This document shows, one piece after another, positions 20,566 to 40,799 of a stretch of 64,000 nt of DNA. Origin of the DNA: an uncultured Chloroflexia bacterium. Lineage in GTDB: Bacteria > Chloroflexota > Limnocylindria > Limnocylindrales > CSP1-4. The notes under the pieces were generated by a model, which saw only the letters and a program-made list of their open reading frames with translations, was not told the DNA's origin and ran no database searches. The position numbers were made by a program, and so were the translations under genes. Numbering within the stretch: position 1 is the stretch's first letter; the number at the start of each line of letters is the position of its first letter. The DNA lies in contig CAVPEU010000008.1 of NCBI GenBank assembly GCA_963703575.1, forward strand, positions 193,880 to 257,879, given 5' to 3'.

Positions 20566-20865
20566 ATGAGCGAGACCGGCGATCGTCCCTCACGCGTGGG
20601 CGTGCGCGAGCTCCGCCAGAACCTGTCCGTCTACCTGGACCGGGTGAAGGCCGGCGAGACGCTGGAGGTGACGGAGCACGGGCAGCCCGTCGCGCGCCTC
20701 ACGCCGAACCCGCCGCAGCGGCTGTCGCTCGTGGACCGGCTGATCGCGGAGGGGCGGATAACGCCGGCGAAGGGCGATCACCGGACGTTGCCGATGCCGC
20801 CGAAGATCCCAGGCCGTCCACTGAGTGAGATCCTGCGGGAGATGCGGGACGAGGAAGACCGGTGA
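20566..20865 (+). CDS. Type II antitoxin (Phd/YefM-like, VapB partner)
   Basis: 99-aa product (MSETGDRPSRVGVRELRQNLSVYLDRVKAGETLEVTEHGQPVARL...). Stop overlaps the start of the downstream PIN-domain gene. Confidence 0.6.
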   Translation: MSETGDRPSRVGVRELRQNLSVYLDRVKAGETLEVTEHGQPVARLTPNPPQRLSLVDRLIAEGRITPAKGDHRTLPMPPKIPGRPLSEILREMRDEEDR

Positions 20866-21254
20866 GCGAGCTCACCTACGCCGACGCATCCGCGCTCGTC
20901 AAGCTCGTCGTCGAGGAGCCGGAATCCCGGGCGATGCACCGATGGTTCGTTGAGGCCGGGCGGATCACGACGAGCCGGATCGGCATCATCGAGACCGTGC
21001 GCGCATCGTCGCGGCGCGATCACGACCCGGACCACCGGGACCGCGTCCTCAACGACGTCGAGGTGTTCGAGCTCGACGCCGCGATCGCCGGCGTCGCCGC
21101 ATCGCTGGAACCGTTCCTGCTCCGGACGCTGGACGCCATCCACCTGGCGACGGCGCTGGCGCTCGTGCCGGACCTCGATGCCTTCGTGACCTATGACGAT
21201 CGCCTCGCGGAGGCGGCGCGCGCGATCGGGCTTCCGGTGGTCCGACCGGCCTGA
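20862..21254 (+). CDS. vapC: PIN-domain ribonuclease toxin VapC
   Basis: 130 aa; PIN acidic residues in canonical spacing (DASALVKL...EVFELD...DAIHLATA...). Confidence 0.75.
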   Translation: MSELTYADASALVKLVVEEPESRAMHRWFVEAGRITTSRIGIIETVRASSRRDHDPDHRDRVLNDVEVFELDAAIAGVAASLEPFLLRTLDAIHLATALALVPDLDAFVTYDDRLAEAARAIGLPVVRPA

Positions 21255-21271: not shown

Positions 21272-21496
21272 TCAGTCCGGCGGCAGGTCCAGCCACCTCT
21301 CCCGGAGTTCCCCCGTCGCCAGCTCCGTCCGCGACGCGATCCCGAACCGCTCGAAAAGGCGAGCGAGATGCGTCTCCACGGTCCTGGCGCCGATCCCCAG
21401 CGCCGCGCCGATCTCGTCATTGCTGCGCCCCTCGGTCACGAGGCCGACCACCTCGAGCTCGCCGGGTTGGCGATCCGGCGCCGGCGCCCCGGCTGA
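21272..21496 (-). pseudogene. Start-less 3' remnant of a LuxR-family regulator gene (HTH domain only)
   Basis: Seventy-four sense codons plus stop, beginning immediately after the fdhA-C TGA stop and in its frame: SAGAPAPDRQPGELEVVGLVTEGRSNDEIGAALGIGARTVETHLARLFERFGIASRTELATGELRERWLDLPPD. Classic LuxR HTH, no ATG, no receiver domain. Confidence 0.4.
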
Positions 21497-23419
21497 TCAG
21501 CCGGTCGCGGCCGGGGCGCCGAGCTTCTCGACCCGGATCGCCGTCGCCTTGAACTCGGCCGTGCCGGACTTCGGGTCCGCCGCGTCGATCGTGAGGTTGT
21601 TGACCGCGACGTCGTCCTGGAAGTGGAGCGTCATGAACGCGAGGCCGGGCCGGAGCCCCTCGTCCACCCGGACCGGCGCCTCCACCTCGCCCCGGCGCGA
21701 GACCACGCGCACGCGCTCGCCCTCGGCCAGGCCCAGGCGCGCCACGTCCTCCGGTGACAGATCCAGCGTCTCGCCGCGGCGCCGCGGATAGCGGTAGCCG
21801 CCGGACTGGACGCCCGTGTTGTAGGAGTCCAGGTGCCGGCCGGTGGTCAGGCGGATCGGGAAGTCCGCGTCCAGCCGGTCCACCGGCGGGTCGTGCTCCA
21901 CCGGCACGAACGGCGCACGGTCGCCCGGGACCGGGTCCTCCCACAATCGGGAGTGGAGGAACAGCTCGCCCGGGTGCGTCTCGTCGTAGCACGGCCACTG
22001 GAGGCCGCCCTCCGCCTCCAGCCGCGCGTAGCTCATGCCCCGATGCACCGGGGAGAGGCTGCGGAGCTCGTTCCACACCGCCTCCGCGGACGGCTCACCC
22101 CAATCGTGGCCGAGGCCGCGCGCGATGTCGAAGATGATCGCCAGGTCGTCGCGTGCCTCGCCCGGCGGTGCCAGGGCGCGCCGCACCCGCTGGACGCGCC
22201 GCTCGGAGTTCGTGACCGTGCCCTCGCTCTCGGCCCACGCGGCGGCCGCCGGCAGTACGACGTCCGCCACCTCGGCAGTCGCGGTGAGGAAGATGTCCTG
22301 GACGACGAGGAAGTCGAGCCCGCGCAGCAGCAGCTCGGTCCGGTGGCGGTCCGCCTCGGACTGCATCGGGTTCTCGCCGATGACGTACAGGGCGGTCAGC
22401 TCGCCGCGCTCCATCGCGTCGAACATGCCGGTCAGGTGCCAGCCCTTCTTCGGCGGGACCTTGACCCCCCAGGCCGCGTCGAAGGGGGCCCGGAGCTCGT
22501 CCTGCTCCACGTGCTGGAAGCCCGGCAGCCGGTCCGGCAGGGCTCCCATGTCGCCGCCGCCCTGGACGTTGTTCTGGCCCCGCAGCGGGTTGATGCCGCT
22601 GCCGTACTTCCCGACGTGGCCGGTGAGCAGGGCGAGCGAGATCAGGGCGAGCACGTTGTCCACCGCGTTGTGGTGCTCGGTGATGCCCAGGGTCCAGCAG
22701 ATCATCGCGCGGTCCGCCGTCGCGTAGGCGTGGGCGGCCTCGCGGATGGCCTCCGCGGGGACACCGGTCTCCCGCTCCGCGTATTCGAGGGTGTATGGCT
22801 CGACGCCCGCTCGATACGCGTCGAAGCCGGACGTGGCGCGGGCGATGAACTCCTCATTCGCGAGACCGGCCGCGATGATCTCGCGGCCCATCGCGTTGGC
22901 GAGCGCGATGTCGGAGCCCACGTCGAGGCCCAGCCACAGGTCGGCCCACTGGGCGCTCGACGTCCGCCGCGGGTCCACCGCGATCAGCCGGGCGCCACGG
23001 TGCACCCCCCGGAGGAGGTGGTGGAAGAAGATCGGGTGCGTCTCCCGGGCGTTGCTGCCCCACAGGAGGACGAGATCCGTCTCCTCAGCCTCTCGATATG
23101 AGCTGGTACCGCCGCCAGCGCCGAACACGGTCGCCAGACCGGCGACAGAGGGGGCGTGTCAGGTGCGGTTGCAGCTGTCGATGTTGTTGCTGCCCAGGAC
23201 GACACGGGAGAGCTTCTGGGCCGCGAAGTTGACCTCGTTGGTCGACTTGCTGCAGCTGAAGATCCCGTACGTCCGGGAGCCGTGCGCCTCGCCAGCGGCC
23301 CGGAGCCCCGCGACCGTCCTCGCCAGCGCCTCGTCCCAGGTCGCGGGACGCAGGACGCCGGTGCTTCGGTCGCCGTCGCGGACGAGCGGCGTGGTCAGGC
23401 GGACATACTCCTTCGGCAC
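21497..23419 (-). CDS. fdhA: Formate dehydrogenase alpha, catalytic molybdopterin module; selenoprotein with in-frame UGA (Sec) at 23159..23161
   Basis: GTG start with AAGAGG Shine-Dalgarno and an in-frame stop two codons upstream. The two ORFs 23159..23419 and 21497..23128 are contiguous in one frame across a TGA: ...NIDSCNRT-TGA-HAPSVAGLATVFGAGGGTSS..., matching the fdhF ...CARV-U-HGPSVAGL Sec motif. The remainder is molybdopterin oxidoreductase plus C-terminal molybdopterin-binding domain. Confidence 0.85.
23105..23158 (-). promoter_or_regulatory. Bacterial SECIS element immediately 3' of the Sec-UGA of fdhA
   Basis: mRNA after UGA: CACG CCCCUCU GUCGCC GGUCU GGCGAC CGUG UUCGG. This gives a 4-bp lower stem, a 6-bp upper stem and a GGUCU apical loop, near-identical in architecture to the E. 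coli fdhF SECIS (loop GGUCU). Confidence 0.6.
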
Positions 23420-23763: not shown

Positions 23764-24819
23764 CTACCGGAGCGCGACGGCCGCCTCGCCCGCCTCCACG
23801 TTGCCGACCCGCCACGCCGCGACGCCCGCCGCCGCCAGGTCCGCCTCCACCTCCGCGAGCCGGTCCGCCGTCACGGCGGCGAGGAGCCCCCCGGATGTCT
23901 GCGGATCGTGGGCGAGCGCCACGAGCTCGGGCGGGACCCCGATCGCGACGTCCAGTGCGGGTGCCGTGAACCGCCGGTTGTGCCCCGCGCCCCCGGTCTC
24001 CACGCCGGCCCGCGCGAGATCGAGCGCGCCGTCGAGGGCGGGCAACGCGCCGGCCTCGAACACCAGCCGGACCCCCGACGCGCGGGCCATCTCGAGCCCG
24101 TGACCCAGGAGCCCGAACCCGGTCACGTCAGTCGCGCCGCGGATGCCGTGACGCACGAGGACCTCGGAAGCGGCGCGGTTGAGCGCCCTCATCTGGTTCA
24201 CGGCCGCGGCCAGGTCCGCGTCGCTCGTCCGGCCCTGCCGCCGTCCGCTGACCAGCAGACCCGTTCCCAGGGGCTTGGTGAGCAGGAGCGCGTCCCCGGG
24301 CCGCGCGCCGCCCTTGCGCAGCAGCCGGTCCGGGTGCGCCGCGCCGATCACGGCCAGCCCGTACTTCGGCTCAGGGTCCCGGATCGTGTGACCACCGGCC
24401 AGGATGCCGCCAGCCTCGCGCACCTTCGCCGCCGCCGCCTCGAGCACCGCGGTCAGCGCGTCGTTCGGGAAGTCCTCTGGGAACGCCGCGATCGAGAGCG
24501 CGAACAGCACCCGCCCGCCCATCGCGAACACGTCCGACAGCGCGTTCGCCGCAGCGATCTCCCCGTAGGCCGCCGGGTCGTCCACGAGCGGCGGGAAGAA
24601 GTCGAGCGTGCCGAGGATCGCGAGGTCGTCCGAGATGCGGTACGCGGCGGCGTCGTCGGGCGGATCGAGGCCGGCCAGGAGCGCGGGATCCGGGGCCGAA
24701 CCCGCGCCCAGCCCGGCCAGCGCCTCGGCCAGCAGGTCCGCGCCCAGCTTCGCCGCGCAGCCGCCGCAGTCGGTGAGGTCGGTCAGGCGGATCGGGGCGA
24801 GGTCGGGACGCGCCGTCAT
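23764..24819 (-). CDS. selD: Selenophosphate synthetase (selenide, water dikinase) SelD, Cys form
   Basis: N-terminal LTDLTDCGGCAAKLG motif; AIR-synthase-like fold motifs (GGHT, DVTGFGLLGH). Directly upstream of the fdhA selenoprotein gene on the same strand. Confidence 0.85.
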   Translation of the reverse strand: MTARPDLAPIRLTDLTDCGGCAAKLGADLLAEALAGLGAGSAPDPALLAGLDPPDDAAAYRISDDLAILGTLDFFPPLVDDPAAYGEIAAANALSDVFAMGGRVLFALSIAAFPEDFPNDALTAVLEAAAAKVREAGGILAGGHTIRDPEPKYGLAVIGAAHPDRLLRKGGARPGDALLLTKPLGTGLLVSGRRQGRTSDADLAAAVNQMRALNRAASEVLVRHGIRGATDVTGFGLLGHGLEMARASGVRLVFEAGALPALDGALDLARAGVETGGAGHNRRFTAPALDVAIGVPPELVALAHDPQTSGGLLAAVTADRLAEVEADLAAAGVAAWRVGNVEAGEAAVALR

Positions 24820-24887
24820 GCGCGGATCATAGGCGGGTCGGCCCGGGCGATCATCGGCGGGTCGGCCCGGGCGCTACCATCGCGGGC

Positions 24888-24984
24888 GGGAGCGGAGGGG
24901 TCCCGGTGGGCTCCCCGGTCTTCAAAACCGGTGGCGCGGCGCCCGGCGTCGCGCGGTGGGTTCGACTCCCATGCGCTCCCGCCA
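24888..24984 (+). tRNA. selC: tRNA-Sec (selC), anticodon UCA at 24922..24924
   Basis: 97 nt. Acceptor GGGAGCG pairs with CGCUCCC, then discriminator G and encoded CCA. Anticodon arm CCGGU-CUUCAAA-ACCGG (loop identical to E. coli tRNA-Sec), a long GC-rich variable arm, and T arm GGUUCGACUCC. Located between selD and selA. Confidence 0.75.
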
Positions 24985-26220: not shown

Positions 26221-27657
26221 GTGAGCGTCGCCCATCGGCCCAGCCATAGCCCGGGCCACCCGCCCGGCCACCCGCCCGGCCACCCGCCCAGCCATCCGCC
26301 CAGCGTCGAACGGCTGCTTGGGCTCGTCCGCGAGCAGGTCGAGCCATCCGAGCCCGCGGCCCTGACCGCGCTTGCCCGGGCGGTGCTCGACGAGGAGCGC
26401 CGGCGGCTGGCCGCCGGCGCGCCGCCGACCCCGGAGCCCGAGCTGGCCGACGCGCTCCTGGCGCGCCTCGCCGATCTCGACGATCCACGGTCCACGATTC
26501 CGCCCCGCGTGATCAACGCGACGGGCGTGATCCTGCACACGAACCTCGGCCGCGCGCCCTGGCCGCGGGCGGCCCGCACCGCCGCGACGCTGGCCGCCGG
26601 CTCCTACGGCTACCTGGAGCTGGACGAGGCGACCGGCCGCCGGGGCGCCAGGTTCCGGGTCGCCGAGGAGCACCTGGTCGCCTTGACCGGCGCCGGGGAC
26701 GCGATGGTCGTCACCAACAACGCGGCCGCGCTGCTGCTCGCCGTGGGGCTCGCCGGGCGACGGGGGTCGGTCGTCGTGTCGCGCGGCGAGCTGGTCGAGA
26801 TCGGCGGCGGGGTGCGGATCCCGGAGGTCGTGGCGCGGGCCGGCGCGCGGCTGGTCGAGGTCGGCACGACGAACCGGACGCGCGCCGCGGACTTCGAGCC
26901 GCCGCTCGCCGACGGCCGGGCACGGGCGGTGCTGCGGGTACATCCGTCCAACTTCTCCATGCAGGGCTTCACCGAGACGGCGGACCTCGCGGAGGTCGCC
27001 GCGATCGCCCACCGCCACGGCGCGCTCGTGATCGACGACCTGGGCTCCGGGGCGCTGCTGGACACGGCGACATTCGGCCTCGTCCACGAGCCGATGCCGG
27101 CGGAGCGTCTCGCCGCCGGCGCGGACGCCGTCCTGTTCAGCGGCGACAAGCTCGTCGGCGGGCCGCAGGCGGGGCTGATCGTCGGTCGCGCCGACCTGGT
27201 GGCGAAGCTCCGGCGGGACCCGCTGGCCCGGGCGATCCGCCCGGACAAGGCGATCCTCGCCGGGGTTGCCGCCACGCTCGCGATCTACCGAGCCGGGCGG
27301 GCGGCGAGCGACATCCCCGTGTGGCGGCTGATCGCCCGGGAGCCGGAGGAGCTCCGGGAGCGTGCCGAGTGGATCCGGGGGCTGGCGGCCGCGGCCGGAC
27401 GGGCGGACGTCACGGTGGTGGAGCTCGAGTCGCCGGTCGGGGGCGGCTCACTGCCCGGCCAGACGCTGAGGTCCTTCGGCGTCTCCGTGCCGGCCGCCTC
27501 GCCCACGCGCGCGCTCGCCATCCTGCGCCGGGGCCCGGACCGGATCCTGGCCCGGATCGTGGATGATGCGATCGCGTTCGACCTGAGAACTGTCGAACCG
27601 TTCGAGGACGGTACGATCGCCCGGCGGATCGCGGACGTGCCGCCGCCCCGGCGATGA
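26221..27657 (+). CDS. selA: L-seryl-tRNA(Sec) selenium transferase SelA
   Basis: VINATGVILHTNLGRAP motif and the PLP-lysine region FSGDKLVGGPQAG; about 470 aa. Confidence 0.85.
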   Translation: MSVAHRPSHSPGHPPGHPPGHPPSHPPSVERLLGLVREQVEPSEPAALTALARAVLDEERRRLAAGAPPTPEPELADALLARLADLDDPRSTIPPRVINATGVILHTNLGRAPWPRAARTAATLAAGSYGYLELDEATGRRGARFRVAEEHLVALTGAGDAMVVTNNAAALLLAVGLAGRRGSVVVSRGELVEIGGGVRIPEVVARAGARLVEVGTTNRTRAADFEPPLADGRARAVLRVHPSNFSMQGFTETADLAEVAAIAHRHGALVIDDLGSGALLDTATFGLVHEPMPAERLAAGADAVLFSGDKLVGGPQAGLIVGRADLVAKLRRDPLARAIRPDKAILAGVAATLAIYRAGRAASDIPVWRLIAREPEELRERAEWIRGLAAAAGRADVTVVELESPVGGGSLPGQTLRSFGVSVPAASPTRALAILRRGPDRILARIVDDAIAFDLRTVEPFEDGTIARRIADVPPPRR

Positions 27658-29609
27658 GCGGCCCGATGAGTGGTCCCCTGAGCAGCCCGATGGGCGACCC
27701 GATGAGCGGTCCCGTGGGGTCGTCGCCGGCCAGCGTCGTCGTGGGCACGGCCGGGCACATCGACCACGGCAAGACAGCGCTCCTGCGCGCCCTCACCGGC
27801 ATCGACGCGGACCGGCTGCCGGAGGAGCGGCGCCGCGGCATCACGGTCGACGTGGGGTACGCCCACCTCGCGCTCCCGGACGGGTCGGTCGTGGATTTCG
27901 TGGACGTGCCGGGCCACGACCGGCTGGTGGGGAACATGCTCGTGGGCGCCGGCGAGATCGACGCCGCGATGCTCGTCGTGGCGGCGGACGACGGGCCGAA
28001 CGCCCAGACCCTGGAGCACCTGGAGCTGCTGGATGCACTGGGGATCCGCGACGGGCTGGCCGTGGTGACGAAGGCCGACCTGGCGCCGGACGACGGGCGC
28101 CGCGCGGAGCTGGTGGCGGAGGTTCGCGCGCTGCTGGACCGGACCGCCCTCGCCGGCGCGCCGGTGCTGGTGGCGTCGGCGGTGACGGGCGAAGGGGTCG
28201 AAGCCGTGCGGGCGACGATCGGGGAGGTGGCGCGGGACGTGGCGGCACGGTTGCCTGCCGGCGGTCCGCCGCGGCTCGCGATCGACCGCGTGTTCGCGGT
28301 CCGGGGCCGCGGGACGGTGGTCACCGGCAGCCTGCGGGGCGGACAGGTGACGGCCGGCATGACGCTCCGGCTGGTGCCCGACGATCACGGGGTCCGCGTG
28401 CGCGAGGTGCAGGTCCGCGGGGCGACCGTGAGCGACGCCCACGGCGGACGGACGGCGCTGCTGCTGGGCGGGATCGAAGCGGATGTCCTGCGGCGGGGCC
28501 AGGTCCTGACGGCGGACCCCGTGGTCGCCGCGACGTCCCGGGTGCTGGTCGCGGTCCGGCCGGTGGCCGCGCTGGAACCCGGCCGCCCGTCGCCGCCCGC
28601 GCCCGCCGATCGCGAGCGGCTGCGGCTCCATGCCGGTACCGCGCAGGCCGAGGCGCTCGTGGTGCGCGGGCCGCGCGAGGCGATCGAGCTGGCCGATGGG
28701 TCGTCTGTCGCGCTGCTCCGCCTGGACCAGGCGATCGCCGTGGCGCCCGGCGACGCGTTCGCCCTGCGCCGTCCGTCGCCGGGCTCCACGGCCGGCGGCG
28801 GCGTCATCCTCGATCCGGACCCGCCCCGCGGCGTCTCCCGGCGACGCCTGAGCCCGTCCCGGGCGATGGCCCTCGCGGCATCGCCGGTGGGTGGCGCGCC
28901 AGCGAGGCTGGACCTCCACGGCGCGTTGCGCGGACCCGCTGGCTGGGCGCTGGCCGCGGACGTCGCCGACGCGCTGGAGTCCCGCGCCCGCGACCTCGTC
29001 ACCGCCCACCACGACGCCGAGCCCGCGTCGCCGGGCATGCCGGCGCCCGCGTTGCGGCAGGACCTCGCGCTCGCGGCCCGTCGCCTGGTGACGCTCGGTC
29101 GGGCGGCCGCCGACGAGGTGGCGCGAGGCGTCGTGGACGCGCTCGTGGCCCGCGGCGCGCTCGCCCGGGACGGCGATCGGCTGCGGGATGCGGCGCGCGC
29201 GCCGGGGTTGCCCCGGGACACGCTCGCCGCGATGGACCGCCTGGAGCAGGCGCTCGCGGTCGCGGCGCCGCCGGGTCTCGCGAACGCCGCACGAGCGGCG
29301 GGGTGCCCGCCCGAGGGGATCCGCGCCCTGGAGGCTGCCGGCCGGATCGTCCGGCTGGAGGACGACCTCGCCTGGGCGGCGACGACGTATCGGGACCTCG
29401 TGACGCGTGCTCTCGCGATGGCCGCCACCGGGCCCCTCTCGCCGGCCGCGTTCCGCGATGCGACCGGCAGCAGCCGCCGCTACGTGCTCGTGATCCTCGA
29501 GGACCTGGACCGGCGAGGGCTGTTGCGGCGCACGGACGCGGGCCACGTCCTCGGCCCCACGACGCTGGCCCGGACGCGCGAGCGGGCGGCCACGGCGGCC
29601 TCCGAGTGA
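27654..29609 (+). CDS. selB: Selenocysteine-specific elongation factor SelB
   Basis: GTPase motifs (GHIDHGKT, DVPGH, TKAD) followed by a long winged-helix C-terminal extension. Start overlaps the selA stop (ATGA). Confidence 0.85.
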   Translation: MSGPMSGPLSSPMGDPMSGPVGSSPASVVVGTAGHIDHGKTALLRALTGIDADRLPEERRRGITVDVGYAHLALPDGSVVDFVDVPGHDRLVGNMLVGAGEIDAAMLVVAADDGPNAQTLEHLELLDALGIRDGLAVVTKADLAPDDGRRAELVAEVRALLDRTALAGAPVLVASAVTGEGVEAVRATIGEVARDVAARLPAGGPPRLAIDRVFAVRGRGTVVTGSLRGGQVTAGMTLRLVPDDHGVRVREVQVRGATVSDAHGGRTALLLGGIEADVLRRGQVLTADPVVAATSRVLVAVRPVAALEPGRPSPPAPADRERLRLHAGTAQAEALVVRGPREAIELADGSSVALLRLDQAIAVAPGDAFALRRPSPGSTAGGGVILDPDPPRGVSRRRLSPSRAMALAASPVGGAPARLDLHGALRGPAGWALAADVADALESRARDLVTAHHDAEPASPGMPAPALRQDLALAARRLVTLGRAAADEVARGVVDALVARGALARDGDRLRDAARAPGLPRDTLAAMDRLEQALAVAAPPGLANAARAAGCPPEGIRALEAAGRIVRLEDDLAWAATTYRDLVTRALAMAATGPLSPAAFRDATGSSRRYVLVILEDLDRRGLLRRTDAGHVLGPTTLARTRERAATAASE

Positions 29610-35445: not shown

Positions 35446-35766
35446 GCTGAGGGCCTGACCCCGGATTGCTGGCGCGGGTTCGCGGCACGCGCGGGGGCGC
35501 GGCACGCGGGTGCGCGGCACGCGCGGAGGCAGGACACGCACGGGTGACGCACCAGTGGATGGGGTGGCCTGGATTGCCGCACGGTGATCCACGTGTGGAT
35601 CAGGACGACGAGTTCGCCGCACGGTTCAGCGACCCAACCCGGGGTACGGCCCCCGGGCCACGCTCGGGGATCACCCGGTTGATCCACAGGTGAATGAGGA
35701 CCCCGGGAGGATGGGGCCGGTGGAATGAGGGCCCCGGGGGATGGGGCCCTGGACCTGGGCCCGGGC

Positions 35767-36105
35767 TCAGTCCGGCTTGATCTGGCGGAAGCAGTCAGAG
35801 CAGTAGACCGGCTTGTCCATCCGGGGCTTGAACGGCACCTGCGCCTGGTTGCCGCACGACGAGCAGATCGCCACGAAGTACTCGCGCGGTCCGCGATCAT
35901 CGCTGCGCTCGTAGCCGCGGGGGCCACCGAGCGCGTGCGCGTCCGAGCCGCCGTCGCGGGTGGCGCGGCGATAGGCCCGGCATGAGGCACACCGCTTGGG
36001 GTCGGAGGTGAACCCCTTCTGGGTGTAGTACTCCTGGTCCGCGGCGGAGTGGATGAACTCGACCCCGCAGTCCACGCAAGTGAGGGTTCGATCGACGTAG
36101 GTCAC
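35767..36105 (-). CDS. Small double zinc-ribbon protein
   Basis: GTG start with GGAGGAG Shine-Dalgarno. Two CxxC...CxxC pairs (CVDCG...CASCR; CSSCG...CSDCF). Confidence 0.5.
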   Translation of the reverse strand: MTYVDRTLTCVDCGVEFIHSAADQEYYTQKGFTSDPKRCASCRAYRRATRDGGSDAHALGGPRGYERSDDRGPREYFVAICSSCGNQAQVPFKPRMDKPVYCSDCFRQIKPD

Positions 36106-36356
36106 TTGAAGTGCTCCTCCCGGGCGCGCGCTCGGACAGTTCATGGTGCGAGCACCGAACGGGACCTCACCTGCGGAGGCGGCCACGGCGGGGAGTCAGC
36201 CGGGGCCGCGTGACCCAGGTGCCGGTTCTCGGAGTCCCTAGCTCGGGGCGCACCGGTTGGACGAGGGCCCCAGCCTACACCGGTGCGCCGATCCGGGCGT
36301 TACACGCGCCTTGCATCCGGAGCCGGTCCGCACGATCGTCGGCGGACCGCTGCGAC

Positions 36357-36377
36357 TGTGACAGGCGACCTGTCACA
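36357..36377. promoter_or_regulatory. Perfect palindrome TGTGACAGG-CGA-CCTGTCACA upstream of the SbcD-like gene (candidate operator)
   Basis: Direct reading: 9-bp arms with a 3-bp spacer, about 200 bp upstream of the 36579 start, in a 470-bp intergenic region. Confidence 0.35.
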
Positions 36378-36578
36378 ATGCCCCCCGAGACTTGGCATGA
36401 CGAGCCGGGAGCGATGGGGGCGCCCGACTCGCCACCGGGTTCCGGGGGCGACCGGCCAGGCCCTGAGATCGCGCGAGACTCGCCAGGTCCCGTGGCGAGG
36501 GGGGCGGGGAGCGGCCGCTCGCGGGACCCGGTCCGCATGCCGGTCCAACTGCGTCGACGAGGGAGGCAGGCCCACCGC

Positions 36579-37754
36579 ATGCTCCGTTTGATCCATACCG
36601 CGGACGTTCACCTCGGTGCCCGCCACACGGACCTCGGCGACGCGGCGGCGTCCCAGCGGGGGCGCCAGTTCGCTGCCTTCCGCGCGAGCGTCGACCTCGC
36701 CCTTGCCGAGAAGGTGGACCTGTTCCTGGTGGCGGGCGACCTGTTCGACAGCAACGTCCAGCCTCGCAGGTCCGTGGAGGGCGTCGCGGCCGAGCTGGCC
36801 CGCCTTGCCCAGGCCAGGATCCGGTCGGTGCTGATCCCGGGCACGCATGACGTCTACGACCGCTCGTCCGTGTACCGCGCCTACGACCTGCCGGCGCTCG
36901 CGGGCACCCGGCCCGCCGAGGAGATGGTCACGGTGCTCACCCCGGAGCGGCCGTGGGTCCACTTCGCGGCCCTGGACGCCGTCGTGCACGGCCCGGTGTT
37001 CGCGACCAAGCGCGCGCCGCACAGCCCGCTGCTCGACCTCGCCGCCGTGGAGACGCCGAAAGCCAAGTGGAAGATCGGCCTGCTCCATGCCGCGATCGCG
37101 ATCCCCGGCCGCACCGATCACGACGAGGTCGTGGTGACCGTGGACGAGATCGCCGCCAGTGGCCTGGACTATCTCGCGCTCGGGCACTGGCACTCCGCGC
37201 AGTCGTCGAAGGCCGGGGGTGTGACCTATGCCTACGCCGGCGCCCCGGAGCCTGTCGCGGTGGACCAGGACCGTGCCGGCAAGGTCCTGCTGGTCACGCT
37301 CGACGAGCAGGACGGCAGGCGCACGGTCGAGGTGGAGGAGCGGGTCGTCGGGCGGACGACGTTCCAGCGCCTGGACCTGGACGCGGCCTCGGTGGTGTCC
37401 CAGCCCGCCCTCGTCGAGCGGCTCCGGGCGATGGCGAGCCCCGACCTCGTGCTCGACGTGCGGTTGATCGGGGTCCGGCCGGACGAGCTCGATCTCGAGC
37501 CGCTCGAGGTGGAGGAGGCGTTGCGCGGCGCGTTCCTGCGGCTGCGCGTCCGGGACGCCAGCCAGTCCGCCCTGACGGAGGGCGCGCTGCCGCCCGCCGA
37601 GACGATCGCGGGCGCGTTCCTCCGCAACGTGGAGGGGCGGATCGCGGACCTCGAGGCGTCCGGCGACGAGCCCGCGGAGCGCGAGGCGGCCGAGCTGCGG
37701 GACGTGCTCCGCCTGGGCAGGCTGCTGCTGGCCGGGCACGAGGTGACGCTGTGA
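36579..37754 (+). CDS. SbcD/Mre11-like DNA-repair exonuclease (calcineurin-like metallophosphoesterase; YhaO/SbcF-like)
   Basis: Phosphoesterase motifs (IHTADVHLG, LVAGDLFD, GTHD, GHWH). GAGGGAGG Shine-Dalgarno 13 nt upstream of the ATG. Confidence 0.75.
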   Translation: MLRLIHTADVHLGARHTDLGDAAASQRGRQFAAFRASVDLALAEKVDLFLVAGDLFDSNVQPRRSVEGVAAELARLAQARIRSVLIPGTHDVYDRSSVYRAYDLPALAGTRPAEEMVTVLTPERPWVHFAALDAVVHGPVFATKRAPHSPLLDLAAVETPKAKWKIGLLHAAIAIPGRTDHDEVVVTVDEIAASGLDYLALGHWHSAQSSKAGGVTYAYAGAPEPVAVDQDRAGKVLLVTLDEQDGRRTVEVEERVVGRTTFQRLDLDAASVVSQPALVERLRAMASPDLVLDVRLIGVRPDELDLEPLEVEEALRGAFLRLRVRDASQSALTEGALPPAETIAGAFLRNVEGRIADLEASGDEPAEREAAELRDVLRLGRLLLAGHEVTL

Positions 37755-39937
37755 GGATCACGCAGATCACGATCCGCGACCTGCGCCAGTATCGAGATGC
37801 CCAGCTGGACCTCGCCCCGGGCCTCACGATCGTCCGCGGCCCCAACGAGGCCGGCAAGTCCACGCTCCAGCGTGCCATCGAGCTCGCCCTCACCCGGAAG
37901 GTGACGAGCGCCGCGACGGAGCTGGACGGCCTGGTGCCGTGGAACGCCGGGCCCGACGCCCGGACGTCGATCGACATGGCCTTCACCTGGGACGACGAGG
38001 ACGGCGGGACGCACCTCGGCCGGCTCGAGAAGTCCTTCCGCGGCGCGAAGGGTCTCGTCCGGCTGGAGCTGGATGGCGAGGCCATCACGGATCCCGCGCG
38101 GGCGGACGAGGCCCTGGCGGCCCTCTCGGGTGTCCCGACCGAGGCCTTCTTCCGCTCGACGGCATCGGTCCGGCACCACGAGCTCGCGGGGCTCCAGCGC
38201 GACGAGGCCGCGCTGCGGGACCGCCTCCAGGCGTCGATCAGCGGTGCCGATCGCGGCACCAGCCGCGCGAAGAAGCAGCTGGACCGGGCGCTGCACGATC
38301 TCCAGGCCAGGGGCCCCAAGAACCCGGGCCGGCTCAAGGTCGCCGAAGACGCCGTCACCGACCTGACCGCCCGGCTCCAGGCAGGCGAGGAGAACCTCCA
38401 GCGGCTCGAGCGGGATCGGGACGCGCTCGCCGTGGCGAAGGAACGACGCGCCGAGGCCGAGACCGCCCTCCACGAGCGGCGGGCGATGCTGGACAAGGCG
38501 CGCCAGGCGGAGCGGCTCACCGCCGAGCGCGACGCCGCACGCGAGCGCTACGAGCGGTATCGCACGGCGGTCACCGTCCGCGACGAGATTGCGGCCCTGG
38601 ATTCGTCGCATCCATCGCCGACGCCGCTGCCCGTCCTGCGCTCGACCGTGGAGCGGCTCCGGACGGTGAGCACGACCATCGCCACGCTCAGGTCGGCGCT
38701 CGAAGGCGAGGTCCAGGTCAGCTTCGAGGTGCCGCCCGAGGTCAGGTGGCGGCCGCTCTCGCGGTGGTCGATCGGTCTCGTGCTCCTGGGCATCGTCATC
38801 GCCGCCGTGGCCTTCGGCCTCGACGCGGGCGGCGTCCTGGCCGTTGGCACCCTCCCGATCGCCGCGGGCGGGATCGTCGCCGCCGTCGGCCTGGTGCTCG
38901 CGATCATCGGCTTCTGGCTCCGGCGGAGCGACCGGGTCGACAGGAGCCTCCGGGATGTCGAGGTGGCCCGGCGCCTCCGCGGTCGCTCGGAGATGCAGCA
39001 GGAGCTCCGTGACAACGAGGCCGAGCAGGCAGACCTGCTCCAGCGCCTGGGGTTGGACGACGTCGAGGCGGCCGAGGAGCGGTTGCGCCTCGAGGCCGCG
39101 CACGTCGACGAGATCGAGCACCGCAGGGCGCGGCTGGATGGGCTGATCGGCGAGGAGCCGCACGACGTGCTGCCGGCGCGCCGGGATGCGGCCGCGCTGG
39201 AGATCGAGCAGAAGACCGCGGCGCTCGAGGCGCTGGGACCCATCGCGAAGGAGCCGCGCGCGCGGGAGCGGCTCGAGGTGGAGGTCGCGGACACCGAGGG
39301 GACGGTGAACAGGATGCGCGACGACGAGGCGAACGCCCGGGCGCGCGTGGAGCAGAACCCCGTGGACGCGGAGGCGGTCGCCGCCCTCGCGGAGCGGCTC
39401 ACCTCGGGCAGGGAGGATCTCGCCGCCCTCCGCCGGCGCGAGCGCGTCTACGGCCTCACGCTGCGGGAGATCAACGCCGCCGAGCAGGCGACGATGCAGC
39501 GCGCGACGCGGTACCTGGAGCGACGCATGGTCGGCGACGTGGCGCGGGTGACTGGCGGACGCTACCGCCGCGTGCGCGTGGACGACACGAACCTCGGGAT
39601 CGAGGTGTTCTCCCCCGATCGCCACGACTGGGTCGCCGTGAGCGACCTGTCGCAGGGCACGCTGGACGTGGTGTACCTCGCGGCGCGCCTGGGGCTCGTG
39701 CGGCTGGTCACCGGTGACCGGCGGCCGCCGCTCGTGTTCGACGACCCGTTCGTGACCCTGGACGCCGAGCGTGCGCCGCGCGCGCTGGAGCTGCTGCGGG
39801 AGATCGCCTCGGACTTCCAGGTGATCTACCTCACCACGTCGGACCGGTACGACGACATCGCGGATCGCGTCCTCGTGCTGCCCGGACCGGAGACCGTGGA
39901 CGACCACCAGCACGAGGCGGGAGCGGCTCCTGCCTGA
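37751..39937 (+). CDS. SbcC/YhaN-like AAA ATPase with long coiled coil and two central TM helices
   Basis: Walker A (GPNEAGKST) at the N-terminus; C-terminal LVFDDPFVTLD (Walker B/D-loop). Long Arg/Glu/Ala-rich coiled coil interrupted by two hydrophobic helices (WSIGLVLLGIVIAAVAFGL...AAGGIVAAVGLVLAIIGFWL). GTG start overlaps the sbcD stop. Confidence 0.7.
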   Translation: MRITQITIRDLRQYRDAQLDLAPGLTIVRGPNEAGKSTLQRAIELALTRKVTSAATELDGLVPWNAGPDARTSIDMAFTWDDEDGGTHLGRLEKSFRGAKGLVRLELDGEAITDPARADEALAALSGVPTEAFFRSTASVRHHELAGLQRDEAALRDRLQASISGADRGTSRAKKQLDRALHDLQARGPKNPGRLKVAEDAVTDLTARLQAGEENLQRLERDRDALAVAKERRAEAETALHERRAMLDKARQAERLTAERDAARERYERYRTAVTVRDEIAALDSSHPSPTPLPVLRSTVERLRTVSTTIATLRSALEGEVQVSFEVPPEVRWRPLSRWSIGLVLLGIVIAAVAFGLDAGGVLAVGTLPIAAGGIVAAVGLVLAIIGFWLRRSDRVDRSLRDVEVARRLRGRSEMQQELRDNEAEQADLLQRLGLDDVEAAEERLRLEAAHVDEIEHRRARLDGLIGEEPHDVLPARRDAAALEIEQKTAALEALGPIAKEPRARERLEVEVADTEGTVNRMRDDEANARARVEQNPVDAEAVAALAERLTSGREDLAALRRRERVYGLTLREINAAEQATMQRATRYLERRMVGDVARVTGGRYRRVRVDDTNLGIEVFSPDRHDWVAVSDLSQGTLDVVYLAARLGLVRLVTGDRRPPLVFDDPFVTLDAERAPRALELLREIASDFQVIYLTTSDRYDDIADRVLVLPGPETVDDHQHEAGAAPA

Positions 39938-40019
39938 GCTCCTCGGCCCGGGCACGGCGGTCATCGTCCTCGGCCTCGGGTCGGCCCTCGCCTGGGGTGC
40001 CGGCGACTTCGGCGGGGGG

Positions 40020-40799
40020 ATGCTGAGCCGTCGGGCGCCGTTGTTCGGGGTCGTCGCCGGGACGCAGCTGGTCGGCATGATCGCGGCCGTCGCGCTGGCG
40101 ATCCTCCGCGGCGAGCCCCTGCCGCAGGGCGCCGACGTCACCTGGGCGATCGGCGGCGGTCTCACCGGCATGATCGGCATCACCTCGCTGTACCGCGGGC
40201 TCGCGGTGGGCCGCATGGGCGTGGTCGCGCCGACGACGGGCGTGCTGGCCGCCGTGGTGCCCGTGGCCGTCGGGTTCGCGCTCGAGGGCGTGCCGCGTCC
40301 CGCGACCCTGGCCGGGATCGCGATCGCGCTGGTGGCAGTCGTGCTGGTGACCCGGGCGCCGGGTCACGCGGACGGCCGGCCGTCGGGCATCCGCTGGGCG
40401 TTGCTGGCCGGCCTCGCGATCGGGGGCTTCAACGTGTGCATCGGCCAGCTGTCCGACGCCGGGGCGTTCGCTCCGCTGGTGATCATCCGGCTGGTGCAGG
40501 CCGTGGTCATCGTGGTCCTTGTGGCGGCGTGGCGGCAGCCGTGGCGGCTCGAACGCGGCGTGGCCGGCCGCCTGGTCGTCGTCGGGCTCCTGGACATGAC
40601 CGGCAACGCCGCCTTCATCCTCGCTGCCCAGGCGGGCCAGCTCGCGATCGCCGCCGTCCTGTCCTCCCTCTACCCGGTGACGACGGTCCTGCTCGCGATC
40701 GTCGTCCTCGGGGAGCGGCTCACCCGGAGCCATGTCGCCGGCGTGGTGCTCACCGGGGCGGCCATCGTGCTGATCACGGCCGGCACCGCTACGCTGTGA
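40020..40799 (+). CDS. DMT-superfamily (EamA-like) transporter; true start probably about 70 nt further upstream
   Basis: Ten-TM EamA-like pattern. The in-frame upstream sequence encodes a further TM helix (LLGPGTAVIVLGLGSALAWGAGDFGGG) but has no ATG or GTG. Confidence 0.6.
   Translation: MLSRRAPLFGVVAGTQLVGMIAAVALAILRGEPLPQGADVTWAIGGGLTGMIGITSLYRGLAVGRMGVVAPTTGVLAAVVPVAVGFALEGVPRPATLAGIAIALVAVVLVTRAPGHADGRPSGIRWALLAGLAIGGFNVCIGQLSDAGAFAPLVIIRLVQAVVIVVLVAAWRQPWRLERGVAGRLVVVGLLDMTGNAAFILAAQAGQLAIAAVLSSLYPVTTVLLAIVVLGERLTRSHVAGVVLTGAAIVLITAGTATL

What the first reader, a model, noticed from the sequence alone, without database searches (positions are those of the whole stretch)
36357..39937. 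Membrane-anchored SbcC/YhaN-like ATPase paired with an Mre11/SbcD-like nuclease, preceded by a perfect 9-3-9 palindrome
The ATPase has Walker A at the N-terminus and a D-loop at the C-terminus. Its long coiled coil is interrupted by two hydrophobic helices; this is unusual for SbcC but typical of the Bacillus YhaN/SbcE class. Its gene overlaps the nuclease gene (GTGA). About 200 bp upstream lies TGTGACAGG-CGA-CCTGTCACA, a candidate repressor operator. It is not an Actinobacteria LexA or Cheo box. The pair could be a membrane-tethered double-strand-break repair machine, or, given the accessory-looking neighbourhood, a nuclease-ATPase defence module.
Basis: partly seen in the sequence, partly recalled or inferred. 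Interest (0 to 1): 0.5.

Follow-up and report, generated by a model that had tools for sequence, protein, structure and literature searches.

The report
Membrane-anchored repair nuclease operon, damage-type promoter
A soil Chloroflexota bacterium carries a core-genome operon for a membrane-tethered Mre11/Rad50-like nuclease machine, and the palindrome upstream belongs to a conserved promoter signal shared with other DNA-repair genes and built like the mycobacterial DNA-damage (PafBC) promoter.

Summary
An Mre11/SbcD-like nuclease (36579-37754) overlaps by GTGA an SMC/Rad50-like ATPase (37751-39937). The ATPase has a conserved two-helix hydrophobic hairpin where Rad50/SbcC carry the zinc hook. 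A unique palindrome lies 201 nt upstream.

Three corrections:
- The organism is a Candidatus Limnocylindrales bacterium (Chloroflexota), not an actinobacterium.
- The neighbourhood is syntenic core chromosome, not accessory or a defence island.
- The conserved element is GTGACA-N7-TGTCAC, followed after exactly 10 nt by a -10-like hexamer nAnnnT.

This composite precedes the operon in 72 related loci. In Limnocylindrales/Chloroflexota contigs it also precedes leaderless genes for an AdnB/AddA-like helicase-nuclease (5/5 loci), an uncharacterised coiled-coil PD-(D/E)xK-fold protein (6/6), DnaB and others. Its layout matches the mycobacterial PafBC promoter tGTCgg(N10)tA(N3)T. The M. tuberculosis pair Rv1277/Rv1278 (also a 4-nt overlap; homology recalled, not tested) is mitomycin-induced and carries a PafBC motif.

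Best reading: an SbcF/SbcE (YhaO/YhaN)-class break-processing complex under a DNA-damage regulon. The regulator is probably a PafBC/DriD-like activator, but it was not identified. The transcript should start with a covarying 5' hairpin that matches no Rfam family.

The parts
36357..36377 (+). 21-bp palindrome. The conserved core is the inverted repeat GTGACA(36358-36363)-N7-TGTCAC(36371-36376). The predicted position is about -41 to -23 from the inferred transcription start.
   Evidence: Unique in the window. Present upstream of the nuclease gene in 72 related loci, and found nowhere else in 1.04 Mb of window plus loci except one 1-mismatch hit.
36371..36376 (+). Right arm TGTCAC. This is the '-26 element'-like part; the GTC triplet is invariant.
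   Evidence: ACCTGTCACAATG is invariant in the nuclease promoters. Spacing and GTC match the PafBC consensus tGTCgg(N10)tA(N3)T (PMC8635444).
36387..36392 (+). -10-like hexamer GAGACT (nAnnnT), exactly 10 nt after TGTCAC.
   Evidence: A at position 2 in 71/72 and T at position 6 in 72/72 nuclease promoters. In other genes with the same motif the ATG lies 6-9 nt after this hexamer, i.e. they are leaderless, which validates it as a -10 element.
36400..36432 (+). Conserved 5' leader hairpin. A 10-bp stem (36400-36409 pairs with 36423-36432) encloses the loop AGCGAUGGGGGCG. It begins 1-2 nt after the inferred transcription start (~36399).
   Evidence: On alignment A2 of 68 loci, 96.3% of cells pair and 6 of 10 pairs show compensatory changes. 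0/500 shuffles reach this, and slid controls pair at 35-56%. The ATG in the loop is in no constant frame with the nuclease. No Rfam family matches.
36559..36566 (+). Shine-Dalgarno-like GAGGGAGG of the nuclease gene.
   Evidence: Read directly from the sequence.
36579..37754 (+). Mre11/SbcD-like (SbcF/YhaO-type) nuclease, 391 aa. Phosphoesterase motifs are D9xH11, G53D54, G88-T89-H90-D91, H170 and G202H203xH205.
   Evidence: Pfam Metallophos 2e-12 (48.4 bits against a cut-off of 21.5). TIGR00619 sbcD scores 67.2, below its 77.65 cut-off. Nearest PDB sequences are E. coli SbcD 4.6e-8 and Pyrococcus Mre11. The motifs are >=97% conserved in 74 orthologues.
37751..39937 (+). SMC/Rad50-like ABC ATPase of the YhaN/SbcE type, 728 aa. 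It has a GTG start and overlaps the nuclease stop by 4 nt.
   Evidence: Pfam AAA_23, AAA_27 (29.7 bits against 22), AAA_15 and SMC_N. Profile search of the PDB gives Rad50 at 1.7e-10. Foldseek's top hit is Rad50, then MukB, Smc5/6 and JetC. The 4-nt overlap is kept in 65/73 loci.
37838..37864 (+). Walker A (P-loop) GPNEAGKST, aa 30-38.
   Evidence: Invariant in alignment A1.
38765..38914 (+). Hydrophobic helical hairpin (aa 339-357 and 370-388) at the apex of the coiled coil: the predicted membrane anchor.
   Evidence: KD19 values 2.45 and 2.55 with Arg flanks. Present in 27/27 close homologues and in 54/58 full-length representatives of 50%-identity clusters. Helices 334-359 and 368-433 in the AF2 model.
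39647..39763 (+). ABC signature LSQGT (aa 633-637), Walker B LVFDD (661-665; Asp replaces the usual catalytic Glu) and D-loop TLD (669-671).
   Evidence: Alignment A1. The alignment to M. jannaschii Rad50 also places Thr696 where the H-loop His sits.

Best explanation
The locus is a core-genome operon of a Candidatus Limnocylindrales (Chloroflexota) bacterium. It encodes an SbcF/SbcE (YhaO/YhaN)-class complex.

Proteins. The first gene encodes an Mre11/SbcD-type nuclease. The second, translationally coupled, encodes a Rad50/SbcC-like ABC ATPase. In this ATPase the coiled-coil apex carries a two-helix membrane hairpin instead of a zinc hook.

Inferred mechanism of the complex. ATPase heads plus a nuclease dimer clamp and process DNA ends or hairpins as SbcCD/Mre11-Rad50 do. 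The apex hairpin anchors the arms in the cytoplasmic membrane and probably pairs them there. The Asp-for-Glu Walker B and the missing H-loop His suggest slow, switch-like ATP turnover.

Transcription. The operon is read from a promoter without a -35 element. The promoter consists of the inverted repeat GTGACA-N7-TGTCAC (about -41 to -23) and, exactly 10 nt later, a -10 hexamer nAnnnT. The same composite drives a set of DNA-repair and replication genes in this lineage. The palindrome is therefore the recognition site of a DNA-damage-type regulon.

Regulator (inferred, not identified). The most likely regulator is a dimeric PafBC/DriD-like (HTH-WYL) activator that replaces -35 recognition when DNA damage produces single-stranded DNA.

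Leader. Unlike the other regulon members, which are leaderless, this mRNA starts with a conserved 5' stem-loop and a 130-200 nt leader. That implies an extra post-transcriptional layer (stability or translation control); its nature is unknown.
For: Protein identity
- Family, PDB-sequence and fold matches.
- Catalytic motifs conserved in 74 nuclease orthologues.
- No Cys and a conserved hydrophobic hairpin in 27/27 close and 54/58 distant full-length homologues.
- AAA_27 above its cut-off, and JGI 'YhaN' names on some homologues.
- The B. subtilis SbcE/YhaN paper describes a hydrophobic, insoluble central domain, no CxxC, an adjacent SbcD-like yhaO, and double-strand-break-repair and competence phenotypes (PMC2811018).

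Core-gene status
- Nuclease and ATPase are adjacent in 78/78 loci.
- The flanks are syntenic.
- Neighbours are housekeeping and central-metabolism genes.

Promoter and regulon
- The motif is conserved in 72 operon promoters, with hexamer A in 71/72 and T in 72/72.
- A metagenome scan that excluded operon promoters gave 9 hits in contigs with GC >= 0.66. Six of these lie 4-12 nt before a start codon, against 6/120 in lower-GC contigs.
- Genes behind those hits: DnaB, a UvrD-helicase+PD-(D/E)xK protein, a DEAD/Lhr-like helicase, an Ada-like protein, a Zn-ribbon peptide, and a 426-aa protein found three times.
- Independent look-ups by protein found the motif in 3/3 further loci of the 426-aa protein and 4/4 further helicase loci. 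Two of the helicase loci are in assemblies labelled Candidatus Limnocylindrales.

Parallel with PafBC
- Consensus tGTCgg(N10)tA(N3)T, a -26 element at -23 to -28, and no -35.
- PafBC induces AdnAB and, partly, dnaB in M. tuberculosis.
- Rv1277/Rv1278 overlap by 4 nt, are mitomycin-induced (log2FC about 2.5), and are flagged 'PafBC_candidate' with the motif TGTCGGTGTGCAGACCTACACT.
- No sigma-70 consensus promoter was found in the region.

Leader hairpin
- Covariation supports the stem.
Against: - No regulator was identified. No WYL/HTH gene was seen in the window or in the fetched loci.
- recA and lexA promoters of this lineage could not be examined, so a novel LexA-type or other repressor is not excluded.
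- The site is palindromic, unlike PafBC sites. Its GAC...GTC spacing is 2 bp wider than in the DriD site.
- Damage induction is inferred only from regulon content and from the mycobacterial analogy.
- Homology of the pair to Rv1277/Rv1278 and to B. subtilis YhaO/YhaN rests on shared family assignment and gene organisation, not on a direct alignment made here.
- Membrane insertion is predicted from hydropathy only.
- The AF2 model of the ATPase is mediocre (pLDDT 71, heads poorly modelled).
- Motif III of the nuclease is GTHD rather than GNHD, so activity is not guaranteed.
Confidence: 0.6

Rival explanations
1. The inverted repeat is the operator of a repressor. Candidates are a divergent LexA (which would give a new SOS box for Limnocylindria) or a DdrO/XRE-type repressor. 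It would block a -10-only promoter until DNA damage inactivates it.
For: - The site is a symmetric 6-7-6 repeat, typical of dimeric repressors.
- Its centre-to-centre distance of 13 bp is close to that of LexA boxes.
- It overlaps the position where RNA polymerase must bind.
- The regulon contains repair genes.
- Promoters with only a -10 element are common in high-GC monoderm-type lineages (background knowledge).
Against: - The repeat lies at exactly the same distance (N10) from the -10 hexamer in all but one of the ~87 promoters examined, spanning seven or more different genes; L207 is shifted by about one base. Operators of repressors usually vary in position, whereas activator or promoter elements do not.
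- The layout and GTC triplet match the PafBC -26/-10 promoter.
- The gene content (AdnB-like, Lhr-like, DnaB, and the Rv1277/78-like pair) mirrors the PafBC rather than the LexA regulon of mycobacteria.
- The sequence is unlike any LexA box recalled, e.g. GAAC-N4-GTTC or CTGT-N8-ACAG (from memory).
Confidence: 0.27
2. The pair is an anti-phage or anti-plasmid defence module: a nuclease plus an SMC-like ATPase, as in Lamassu, Gabija, Wadjet or MADS.
For: PADLOC matches of the ATPase to mad3 (7e-19), LmuB (3e-16) and GajA/PtuA/AriA heads. Foldseek also lists JetC and Lamassu LmuB among SMC-like hits.
Against: - The matches are partial or limited to the generic ABC head. The nuclease has no defence-family match.
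- No partner genes of those systems are present.
- The operon occurs in 78/78 related loci at the same syntenic position among housekeeping genes, with 60-85% protein identity. This is the opposite of the patchy distribution of defence islands.
- It shares its promoter signal with dnaB and repair helicases.
Confidence: 0.04
3. It is an ordinary soluble SbcCD, and the palindrome is a chance feature or merely an RNA/DNA hairpin with no regulatory role.
For: SbcD and Rad50 are the nearest solved relatives. JGI annotates many homologues as 'SbcCD ATPase subunit'.
Against: - There is no Cys and therefore no zinc hook. Two strongly hydrophobic segments are conserved throughout the family.
- Scores are far below the SbcC/Rad50 equivalog cut-offs.
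- The palindrome core is conserved in 72 loci while the flanking DNA diverges, and it recurs at other promoters.
Confidence: 0.02

Closest known systems
Bacillus subtilis SbcF-SbcE (YhaO-YhaN)
   Same: - An Mre11/SbcD-like nuclease gene lies immediately upstream of an SMC/SbcC-like ATPase gene.
- The ATPase lacks CxxC and has a hydrophobic central domain between the two coiled-coil arms.
- It has a Pfam AAA_27 (YhaN-type) N-terminus.
- A role in double-strand-break repair is shown for B. subtilis (PMC2811018).
   Different: - 728 aa here against about 960 aa, so the arms are shorter.
- No yhaM-like exonuclease gene lies downstream; the next gene is an EamA transporter.
- The phylum is different.
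- The B. subtilis paper does not describe the central domain as a membrane anchor.
- No direct alignment with YhaN could be made here.
Mycobacterium tuberculosis Rv1277-Rv1278
   Same: - The two genes overlap by 4 nt.
- They are mitomycin-C induced and preceded by a PafBC motif, TGTCGG-N10-TACACT. This is the same -26/-10 layout as TGTCAC-N10-GAGACT here.
- From memory, they are annotated as a YhaO/YhaN-like pair.
   Different: - Rv1278 is 875 aa.
- The mycobacterial site is a single half-site, not a palindrome.
- The mycobacterial transcript appears nearly leaderless, since the motif lies inside the annotated ORF start. Here there is a ~180-nt leader with a hairpin.
- Sequence homology was not tested here.
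SbcCD / Mre11-Rad50
   Same: A phosphoesterase nuclease plus an ABC ATPase with an antiparallel coiled coil. These are the nearest solved structures by sequence and by fold.
   Different: - No zinc hook; a membrane hairpin sits at the apex.
- Walker B is DD, not DE, and there is no H-loop His.
- Nuclease motif III is GTHD, not GNHD.
- Scores are below the curated SbcC/SbcD/Rad50 cut-offs.
PafBC-dependent (RecA-NDp) promoters of Actinobacteria
   Same: A bipartite promoter without a -35 element: a GTC-containing element at -28 to -23, 10 nt upstream of tAnnnT. It controls repair genes including adnAB, dnaB (partly) and Rv1277/78.
   Different: - The element reads TGTCAC, not TGTCGG.
- It is the right arm of an inverted repeat, with a second arm at -41 to -36.
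- The host is Chloroflexota.
- No PafBC homologue was identified.
DriD operator of Caulobacter crescentus (ATACGAC-N7-GTCGTAT)
   Same: A 21-bp 7-7-7 palindrome with GAC/GTC in the arms. It is bound by a homodimeric WYL activator of an SOS-independent damage regulon that includes recA, recJ and dnaG (PMC10853764).
   Different: The half-site sequence differs. The GAC...GTC distance is 9 rather than 7 bp. The spacer here is GC-rich rather than AT-rich.

Membership tests
Mre11/SbcD nucleases (calcineurin-like phosphoesterases) | Phosphoesterase motifs I-V (DxH, GD, GNH[DE], H, GHxH) | tested here: met
   D9xH11, G53D54, H170 and G202H203xH205 are present and >=97% conserved in 74 orthologues. 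Motif III reads GTHD, with Thr for Asn, and this substitution is itself conserved.
Mre11/SbcD nucleases (calcineurin-like phosphoesterases) | Score above curated family cut-offs | tested here: inconclusive
   Pfam Metallophos scores 48.4 against 21.5 (met). TIGR00619 sbcD scores 67.2 against 77.65, and the SbcD/Mre11 equivalogs fall far below their cut-offs (not met).
Rad50/SbcC | Split ABC head: N-terminal Walker A; C-terminal signature, Walker B and D-loop | tested here: met
   GPNEAGKST (30-38), LSQGT (633-637), LVFDD (661-665), TLD (669-671). Walker B has Asp instead of Glu, and Thr sits at the H-loop position.
Rad50/SbcC | CxxC zinc hook at the coiled-coil apex | tested here: not met
   The protein has no cysteine. 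There is no CxxC in any of 58 full-length family representatives.
Rad50/SbcC | Score above curated equivalog cut-offs | tested here: not met
   The best Rad50 model scores 38.9 bits against a cut-off of 700.
SbcE/YhaN class (COG4717, Pfam AAA_27) | YhaN-type N-terminal AAA_27 domain | tested here: met
   PF13514 scores 29.7 bits against 22. It is precomputed for nearly all homologues. JGI names some homologues 'uncharacterized protein YhaN'.
SbcE/YhaN class (COG4717, Pfam AAA_27) | Hydrophobic central domain between the coiled-coil arms, with no CxxC | tested here: met
   The feature is as described for SbcE in PMC2811018.
SbcE/YhaN class (COG4717, Pfam AAA_27) | Adjacent upstream SbcD-like (yhaO/sbcF) gene | tested here: met
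   Adjacent in 78/78 loci; 4-nt overlap in 65/73.
SbcE/YhaN class (COG4717, Pfam AAA_27) | Direct sequence similarity to B. subtilis YhaN or M. tuberculosis Rv1278 over the arms and central domain | not tested
   Neither reference sequence was available through the tools. AFDB fold libraries were offline.
PafBC-type (RecA-NDp) promoter | GTC-containing -26 element 10 nt upstream of a tAnnnT -10 element, with no -35 | tested here: met
   TGTCAC-N10-nAnnnT is present in 72 operon promoters and 15 promoters of other genes. Leaderless starts confirm the -10. No sigma-70 consensus promoter was found.
PafBC-type (RecA-NDp) promoter | Non-palindromic site read by one HTH of a PafB/PafC heterodimer | tested here: not met
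   The site is an inverted repeat with a conserved second arm, GTGACA.
PafBC-type (RecA-NDp) promoter | HTH-WYL-WCX regulator encoded in the genome; induction by DNA damage | not testable with these tools
   No whole genome of the lineage was accessible. No WYL gene was seen in the window or in loci L201-L207.
LexA (SOS/Cheo) box | Known LexA consensus (GAAC-N4-GTTC, TCGAAC-N4-GTTCGA, CTGT-N8-ACAG) and presence at lexA/recA | tested here: inconclusive
   The sequence does not match the recalled consensi (direct reading). The recA and lexA promoters of this lineage were not available.
Defence systems with SMC-like ATPases (Lamassu, Gabija, Wadjet, MADS) | Full-length match to a system protein, its partner genes, and patchy island-like distribution | tested here: not met
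   Only partial or head matches were found. No partner genes are present, and core synteny holds across 80 loci.

The most novel reading that the evidence does not exclude
Sigma adaptation is the PafBC mechanism in which a WYL-type activator takes the place of -35 recognition. It is so far known only from Actinobacteria. This reading holds that it also operates in the uncultured soil class Limnocylindria (Chloroflexota).

There it would use a palindromic -41/-26 element that links the palindromic DriD-type and half-site PafBC-type sites. Its conserved core targets would include a membrane-tethered Mre11/Rad50-like complex homologous to Rv1277/Rv1278, and a previously unnoticed coiled-coil PD-(D/E)xK nuclease family. 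The nuclease operon alone would carry an additional, new 5' leader RNA element.
Probability: 0.4. Interest if true: 0.65.

Novelty: new variant of a known kind. Interest (0 to 1): 0.5.

Why it matters
- Regulation. It gives a defined, testable DNA-damage promoter signal for an abundant but uncultured soil lineage. If the PafBC analogy holds, it suggests that the LexA-independent, PafBC/DriD-style logic is older and more widespread than Actinobacteria and Alphaproteobacteria.
- The complex. The SbcE/YhaN-Rv1278 class appears to be a membrane-anchored relative of Rad50 in which a transmembrane hairpin replaces the zinc hook. This bears on how the arms of these machines are joined, and on why a break-processing nuclease would work at the membrane.
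- New candidates. The regulon also flags an uncharacterised, very widespread nuclease-fold protein as a candidate repair factor.

Tried and rejected
- Upstream ATG as the nuclease start or a leader peptide. I tested whether the ATG inside ATGGGGGCGCC starts the nuclease or a leader peptide. It is in frame 0, 1 or 2 with the nuclease in different loci, and the peptides are not conserved, so I rejected this.
- Known RNA families. An Rfam search of the leader and palindrome gave only a meaningless miRNA hit at E=9.6.
- Whole-leader fold. It is not more stable than shuffles (z=-0.71). Only the 5' hairpin is supported.
- First genome-contig search. The single protein as query found nothing. The alignment query worked.
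- Other readings of the palindrome. CRP-type TGTGA-N6-TCACA has the wrong spacing (N11). A sigma-70 -35/-10 reading gives spacers of 10 or 23 nt. An ECF promoter would need a longer spacer. All were rejected by direct reading, and no sigma-70 consensus promoter was found.
- Defence-system reading. Rejected on PADLOC partial hits and core synteny.
- Metagenome scan. Most of the ~130 hits were chance matches in low-GC contigs. Only the high-GC subset was informative.
- recA/lexA. I looked for these genes in all held DNA using E. coli queries and found none.
- Same-MAG link. The link rests on taxon labels.
- AFDB fold libraries. They were unavailable. The ATPase model was too poor in the heads for a precise fold assignment.
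- Literature. Searches for the motif with WYL, and for SbcE with transmembrane, returned nothing relevant.

Full report
**What is in the sequence**

The window is about 73% G+C. The palindrome TGTGACAGGCGACCTGTCACA lies at 36357-36377. It is the only match in the window even with three mismatches allowed, and no shuffle gave a match.

The nuclease gene starts at ATG 36579, behind GAGGGAGG, and ends at 37754 (391 aa). The ATPase gene starts at GTG 37751 and ends at 39937 (728 aa). GTGA at 37751-37754 is the overlap.

**Where it comes from**

The 120 closest ATPase homologues share 70-99% identity and nearly all are about 728 aa. Those that carry a taxon name are mostly Candidatus Limnocylindrales, and one is a Gaiella MAG. 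The 80 best loci from one-genome-per-species contigs are almost all Chloroflexota/Candidatus Limnocylindrales MAGs. The window is therefore not actinobacterial.

**The proteins**

*Nuclease.* It matches Pfam Metallophos above the cut-off. It matches TIGR00619 (sbcD) just below the cut-off. Its nearest solved relatives by sequence are E. coli SbcD and archaeal Mre11. In 74 orthologues the phosphoesterase motifs are conserved: D9xH11, G53D54, H170 and G202H203xH205. Motif III is GTHD instead of GNHD, and that substitution is itself conserved.

*ATPase.* It matches AAA_23, AAA_15, SMC_N and the YhaN-type AAA_27 domain. A profile of 27 homologues finds Rad50 in the PDB at 1.7e-10. Foldseek on the AlphaFold model puts Rad50 first, followed by MukB, Smc5/6 and JetC. 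The model is only moderate (pLDDT 71): the coiled coils are confident and the heads are poor.

The head motifs are in place: Walker A at 30-38, LSQGT at 633-637, Walker B LVFDD at 661-665 and D-loop TLD. Two deviations stand out. Walker B has Asp where ABC ATPases have the catalytic Glu. Thr696 aligns with the H-loop His of Rad50.

*The hydrophobic hairpin.*
- Residues 339-357 and 370-388 have 19-residue hydropathy means of 2.45 and 2.55, against a maximum of 1.23 elsewhere in the protein.
- The segments are bracketed by arginines, and the protein has no cysteine.
- The feature is present in all 27 close homologues.
- A profile search of 1.84 billion cluster representatives found 591 clusters at E<=1e-30. 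Of 58 full-length representatives, 54 have the same mid-protein hydrophobic stretch (~330-395), none has CxxC, and almost all have DDPF.
- Some of these distant members come from Actinomycetota, and some are named 'uncharacterized protein YhaN'.

The B. subtilis SbcE (YhaN) paper describes the same architecture. SbcE is an SbcC-like protein without CxxC. It has a unique central domain whose first half is hydrophobic and which is insoluble when expressed. It is encoded next to the SbcD-like yhaO (sbcF), and it has double-strand-break-repair and competence phenotypes.

Membership in Rad50/SbcC proper fails on the zinc hook and on curated cut-offs. Membership in the YhaN/SbcE class is met on the features I could test. 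A direct alignment to YhaN or Rv1278 was not possible.

**Context**

The nuclease and ATPase genes are adjacent in 78 of 78 loci that include upstream DNA. The 4-nt overlap is kept in 65 of 73.

The neighbouring genes are conserved in order in most of the 80 loci. They are:
- upstream: MFS transporter, S51 peptidase, a divergent CxxC-x17-CxxC zinc-finger protein;
- downstream: EamA transporter, YCII, AAA_33 kinase, MFS transporter.

Further downstream lie citrate synthase and a pentose-phosphate operon. Upstream lies a selenocysteine/formate-dehydrogenase cluster.

This is stable core chromosome, not an accessory or defence region. PADLOC hits of the ATPase (mad3, LmuB, GajA/PtuA heads) are partial and generic, and the nuclease has none. 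I consider the defence reading very unlikely.

**The palindrome is part of a conserved promoter**

Upstream of the nuclease gene, 67 of 71 loci matched the full palindrome pattern with five or fewer mismatches. A scan for the GTGACA-N7-TGTCAC core found 72 loci, and nothing else in 1.04 Mb of held DNA except one 1-mismatch hit. Aligning on the motif gives the following picture:
- The left arm GTGACA is conserved.
- The right side ACCTGTCACAATG is invariant.
- Exactly 10 nt after TGTCAC comes a hexamer with A at position 2 in 71/72 and T at position 6 in 72/72.

This is the pattern of a -10 element. In the window it is GAGACT at 36387-36392. No sigma-70 consensus promoter exists anywhere in 35700-40200.

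**A regulon**

I scanned metagenome contigs for GTGACA-N6-D-TGTCAC-N11-A-N3-T. The D excludes the operon's own promoters. Most of the ~130 hits were chance matches in low-GC contigs.

The subset in high-GC contigs was different. Of 9 hits in contigs with G+C >= 0.66, six lie 4-12 nt before a start codon. In lower-GC contigs the figure is 6 of 120. The genes behind the high-GC hits are:
- DnaB (L180);
- a UvrD-helicase fused to a PD-(D/E)xK nuclease, i.e. AdnB/AddA-like (L182);
- a DEAD/Lhr-like helicase (L168);
- a 45-aa Zn-ribbon peptide next to tag (L162);
- an Ada-like regulator, about 200 nt downstream of the motif (L100);
- one 426-aa protein with no family match, found three times (L141, L136, L135).

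As an independent test I fetched further loci by protein identity rather than by motif.
- Three of three loci of the 426-aa protein carry the motif just upstream.
- Four of four helicase-nuclease loci do too. Two are in NCBI assemblies labelled Candidatus Limnocylindrales.

In these genes the ATG lies 6-9 nt after the hexamer. That is where transcription should start, so the mRNAs are leaderless. This confirms the hexamer as a -10 element and the distance rule. The palindrome is therefore the signature of a multi-gene DNA repair and replication regulon in this lineage.

**What kind of signal**

The mycobacterial PafBC consensus is tGTCgg(N10)tA(N3)T. Its -26 element lies at -23 to -28, and there is no -35. 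PafBC, a WYL-domain activator triggered by single-stranded DNA, takes the place of -35 recognition; this is called 'sigma adaptation'.

Here the layout is TGTCAC(N10)nAnnnT. The GTC triplet, the spacing and the inferred position (-28 to -23) are the same.

Gene content also agrees. PafBC induces AdnAB and, partly, dnaB in M. tuberculosis. In the supplementary tables of the same study, Rv1277 and Rv1278 overlap by 4 nt, are induced about 5.7-fold by mitomycin C, and are flagged as PafBC candidates with the motif TGTCGGTGTGCAGACCTACACT. From memory, Rv1277/Rv1278 are the YhaO/YhaN-like pair of M. tuberculosis. I did not test that here.

The difference is that the Limnocylindrales site is an inverted repeat. 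In that respect it resembles the 21-bp DriD site ATACGAC(N7)GTCGTAT, which is bound by a homodimeric WYL activator. However, the GAC...GTC distance is 2 bp greater here.

The repeat keeps a fixed phase to the -10 element in all but one of the ~87 promoters examined (L207 is shifted by about one base), which belong to at least seven different genes. That argues for an activator or promoter element rather than a repressor operator. No regulator was identified, and recA/lexA promoters could not be examined. I put about 0.6 on an activator and about 0.27 on a repressor, including the possibility of a new LexA box.

**The leader**

The inferred start (~36399) is immediately followed by a hairpin at 36400-36432. 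On 68 loci:
- 96.3% of cells pair;
- 6 of 10 pairs show compensatory changes;
- none of 500 shuffles reaches this;
- slid controls pair at only 35-56%.

The 13-14 nt loop is almost invariant (AG-Y-N-AUGGGGGCG). The ATG within it is not a start codon of anything conserved. No Rfam family matches. The loop sequence occurs only once elsewhere in all held DNA.

Other regulon members are leaderless. This operon alone therefore has a 130-200 nt leader with a structured 5' end. That fits protection from 5'-end-dependent decay or some translational control. I regard its function as unexplained.

**How it most likely works**

*Shown:*
- the protein families and motifs;
- the conserved hydrophobic hairpin;
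- the operon structure and the core synteny;
- the conserved bipartite promoter, shared with repair genes;
- the covarying 5' hairpin.

*Inferred:*
- The complex acts like SbcCD/Mre11-Rad50 on DNA ends or hairpins.
- Its arms are anchored in the membrane, and probably joined there, through the hairpin in place of the zinc hook.
- ATP turnover is slow.
- Expression rises after DNA damage through a PafBC/DriD-like factor.

**Novelty and score**

The gene pair is a new, shorter member of the poorly studied SbcE/YhaN-Rv1278 class.

I could not find the promoter motif, the regulon or the leader hairpin described anywhere. Literature searches for the motif returned nothing relevant, and the hairpin matches no Rfam family. 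These features are variants of a known regulatory principle rather than a new kind of system.

Interest is moderate: 0.5.

Noticed in passing
window 36400-36432 (+): A conserved 5' leader hairpin with covariation and a near-invariant loop (AGYNAUGGGGGCG). It sits right at the predicted transcription start of the nuclease operon. No Rfam family matches and its function is unknown.
   Followed up: partly
[not shown]
   Followed up: partly
window 21497-23419 (-), 23764-24819 (-), 24886-24984 (+), 26221-29609 (+): Two same-frame molybdopterin-oxidoreductase ORFs are really one formate-dehydrogenase-like gene with an in-frame stop in the context ...SCNRT*HAPSVAG..., which is a selenocysteine site. 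It is flanked by a selD-like gene, tRNA-SeC (anticodon TCA), selA and selB, forming a complete selenocysteine cluster.
   Followed up: partly
window 35767-36075 (-): A 102-aa CxxC-x17-CxxC / treble-clef zinc-finger protein is transcribed divergently from the nuclease operon. It is conserved at this position in 69 loci with 79% median identity. Whether it has a functional link to the operon is unknown.
   Followed up: partly
window 36843-36854 (nuclease aa 89) and 39731-39745, ~39836 (ATPase aa 661-665, 696): Three deviations from canonical active sites are conserved across the family: GTHD instead of GNHD in nuclease motif III, Walker B DD instead of DE, and Thr at the H-loop His position of the ATPase.
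   Followed up: partly
L162:534-671 (+): A 45-aa CxxC...CxxC zinc-ribbon peptide, leaderless, behind the same regulon promoter. It lies next to a DNA-3-methyladenine glycosylase I (tag) gene.
   Followed up: no
window 20862-21254 (+) and 21272-21451 (-): A PIN-domain protein and a 59-aa GerE/LuxR-type HTH fragment lie between the cation exchanger and the formate-dehydrogenase genes. A PIN gene with a small upstream ORF also recurs near the helicase loci L204-L207.
   Followed up: no
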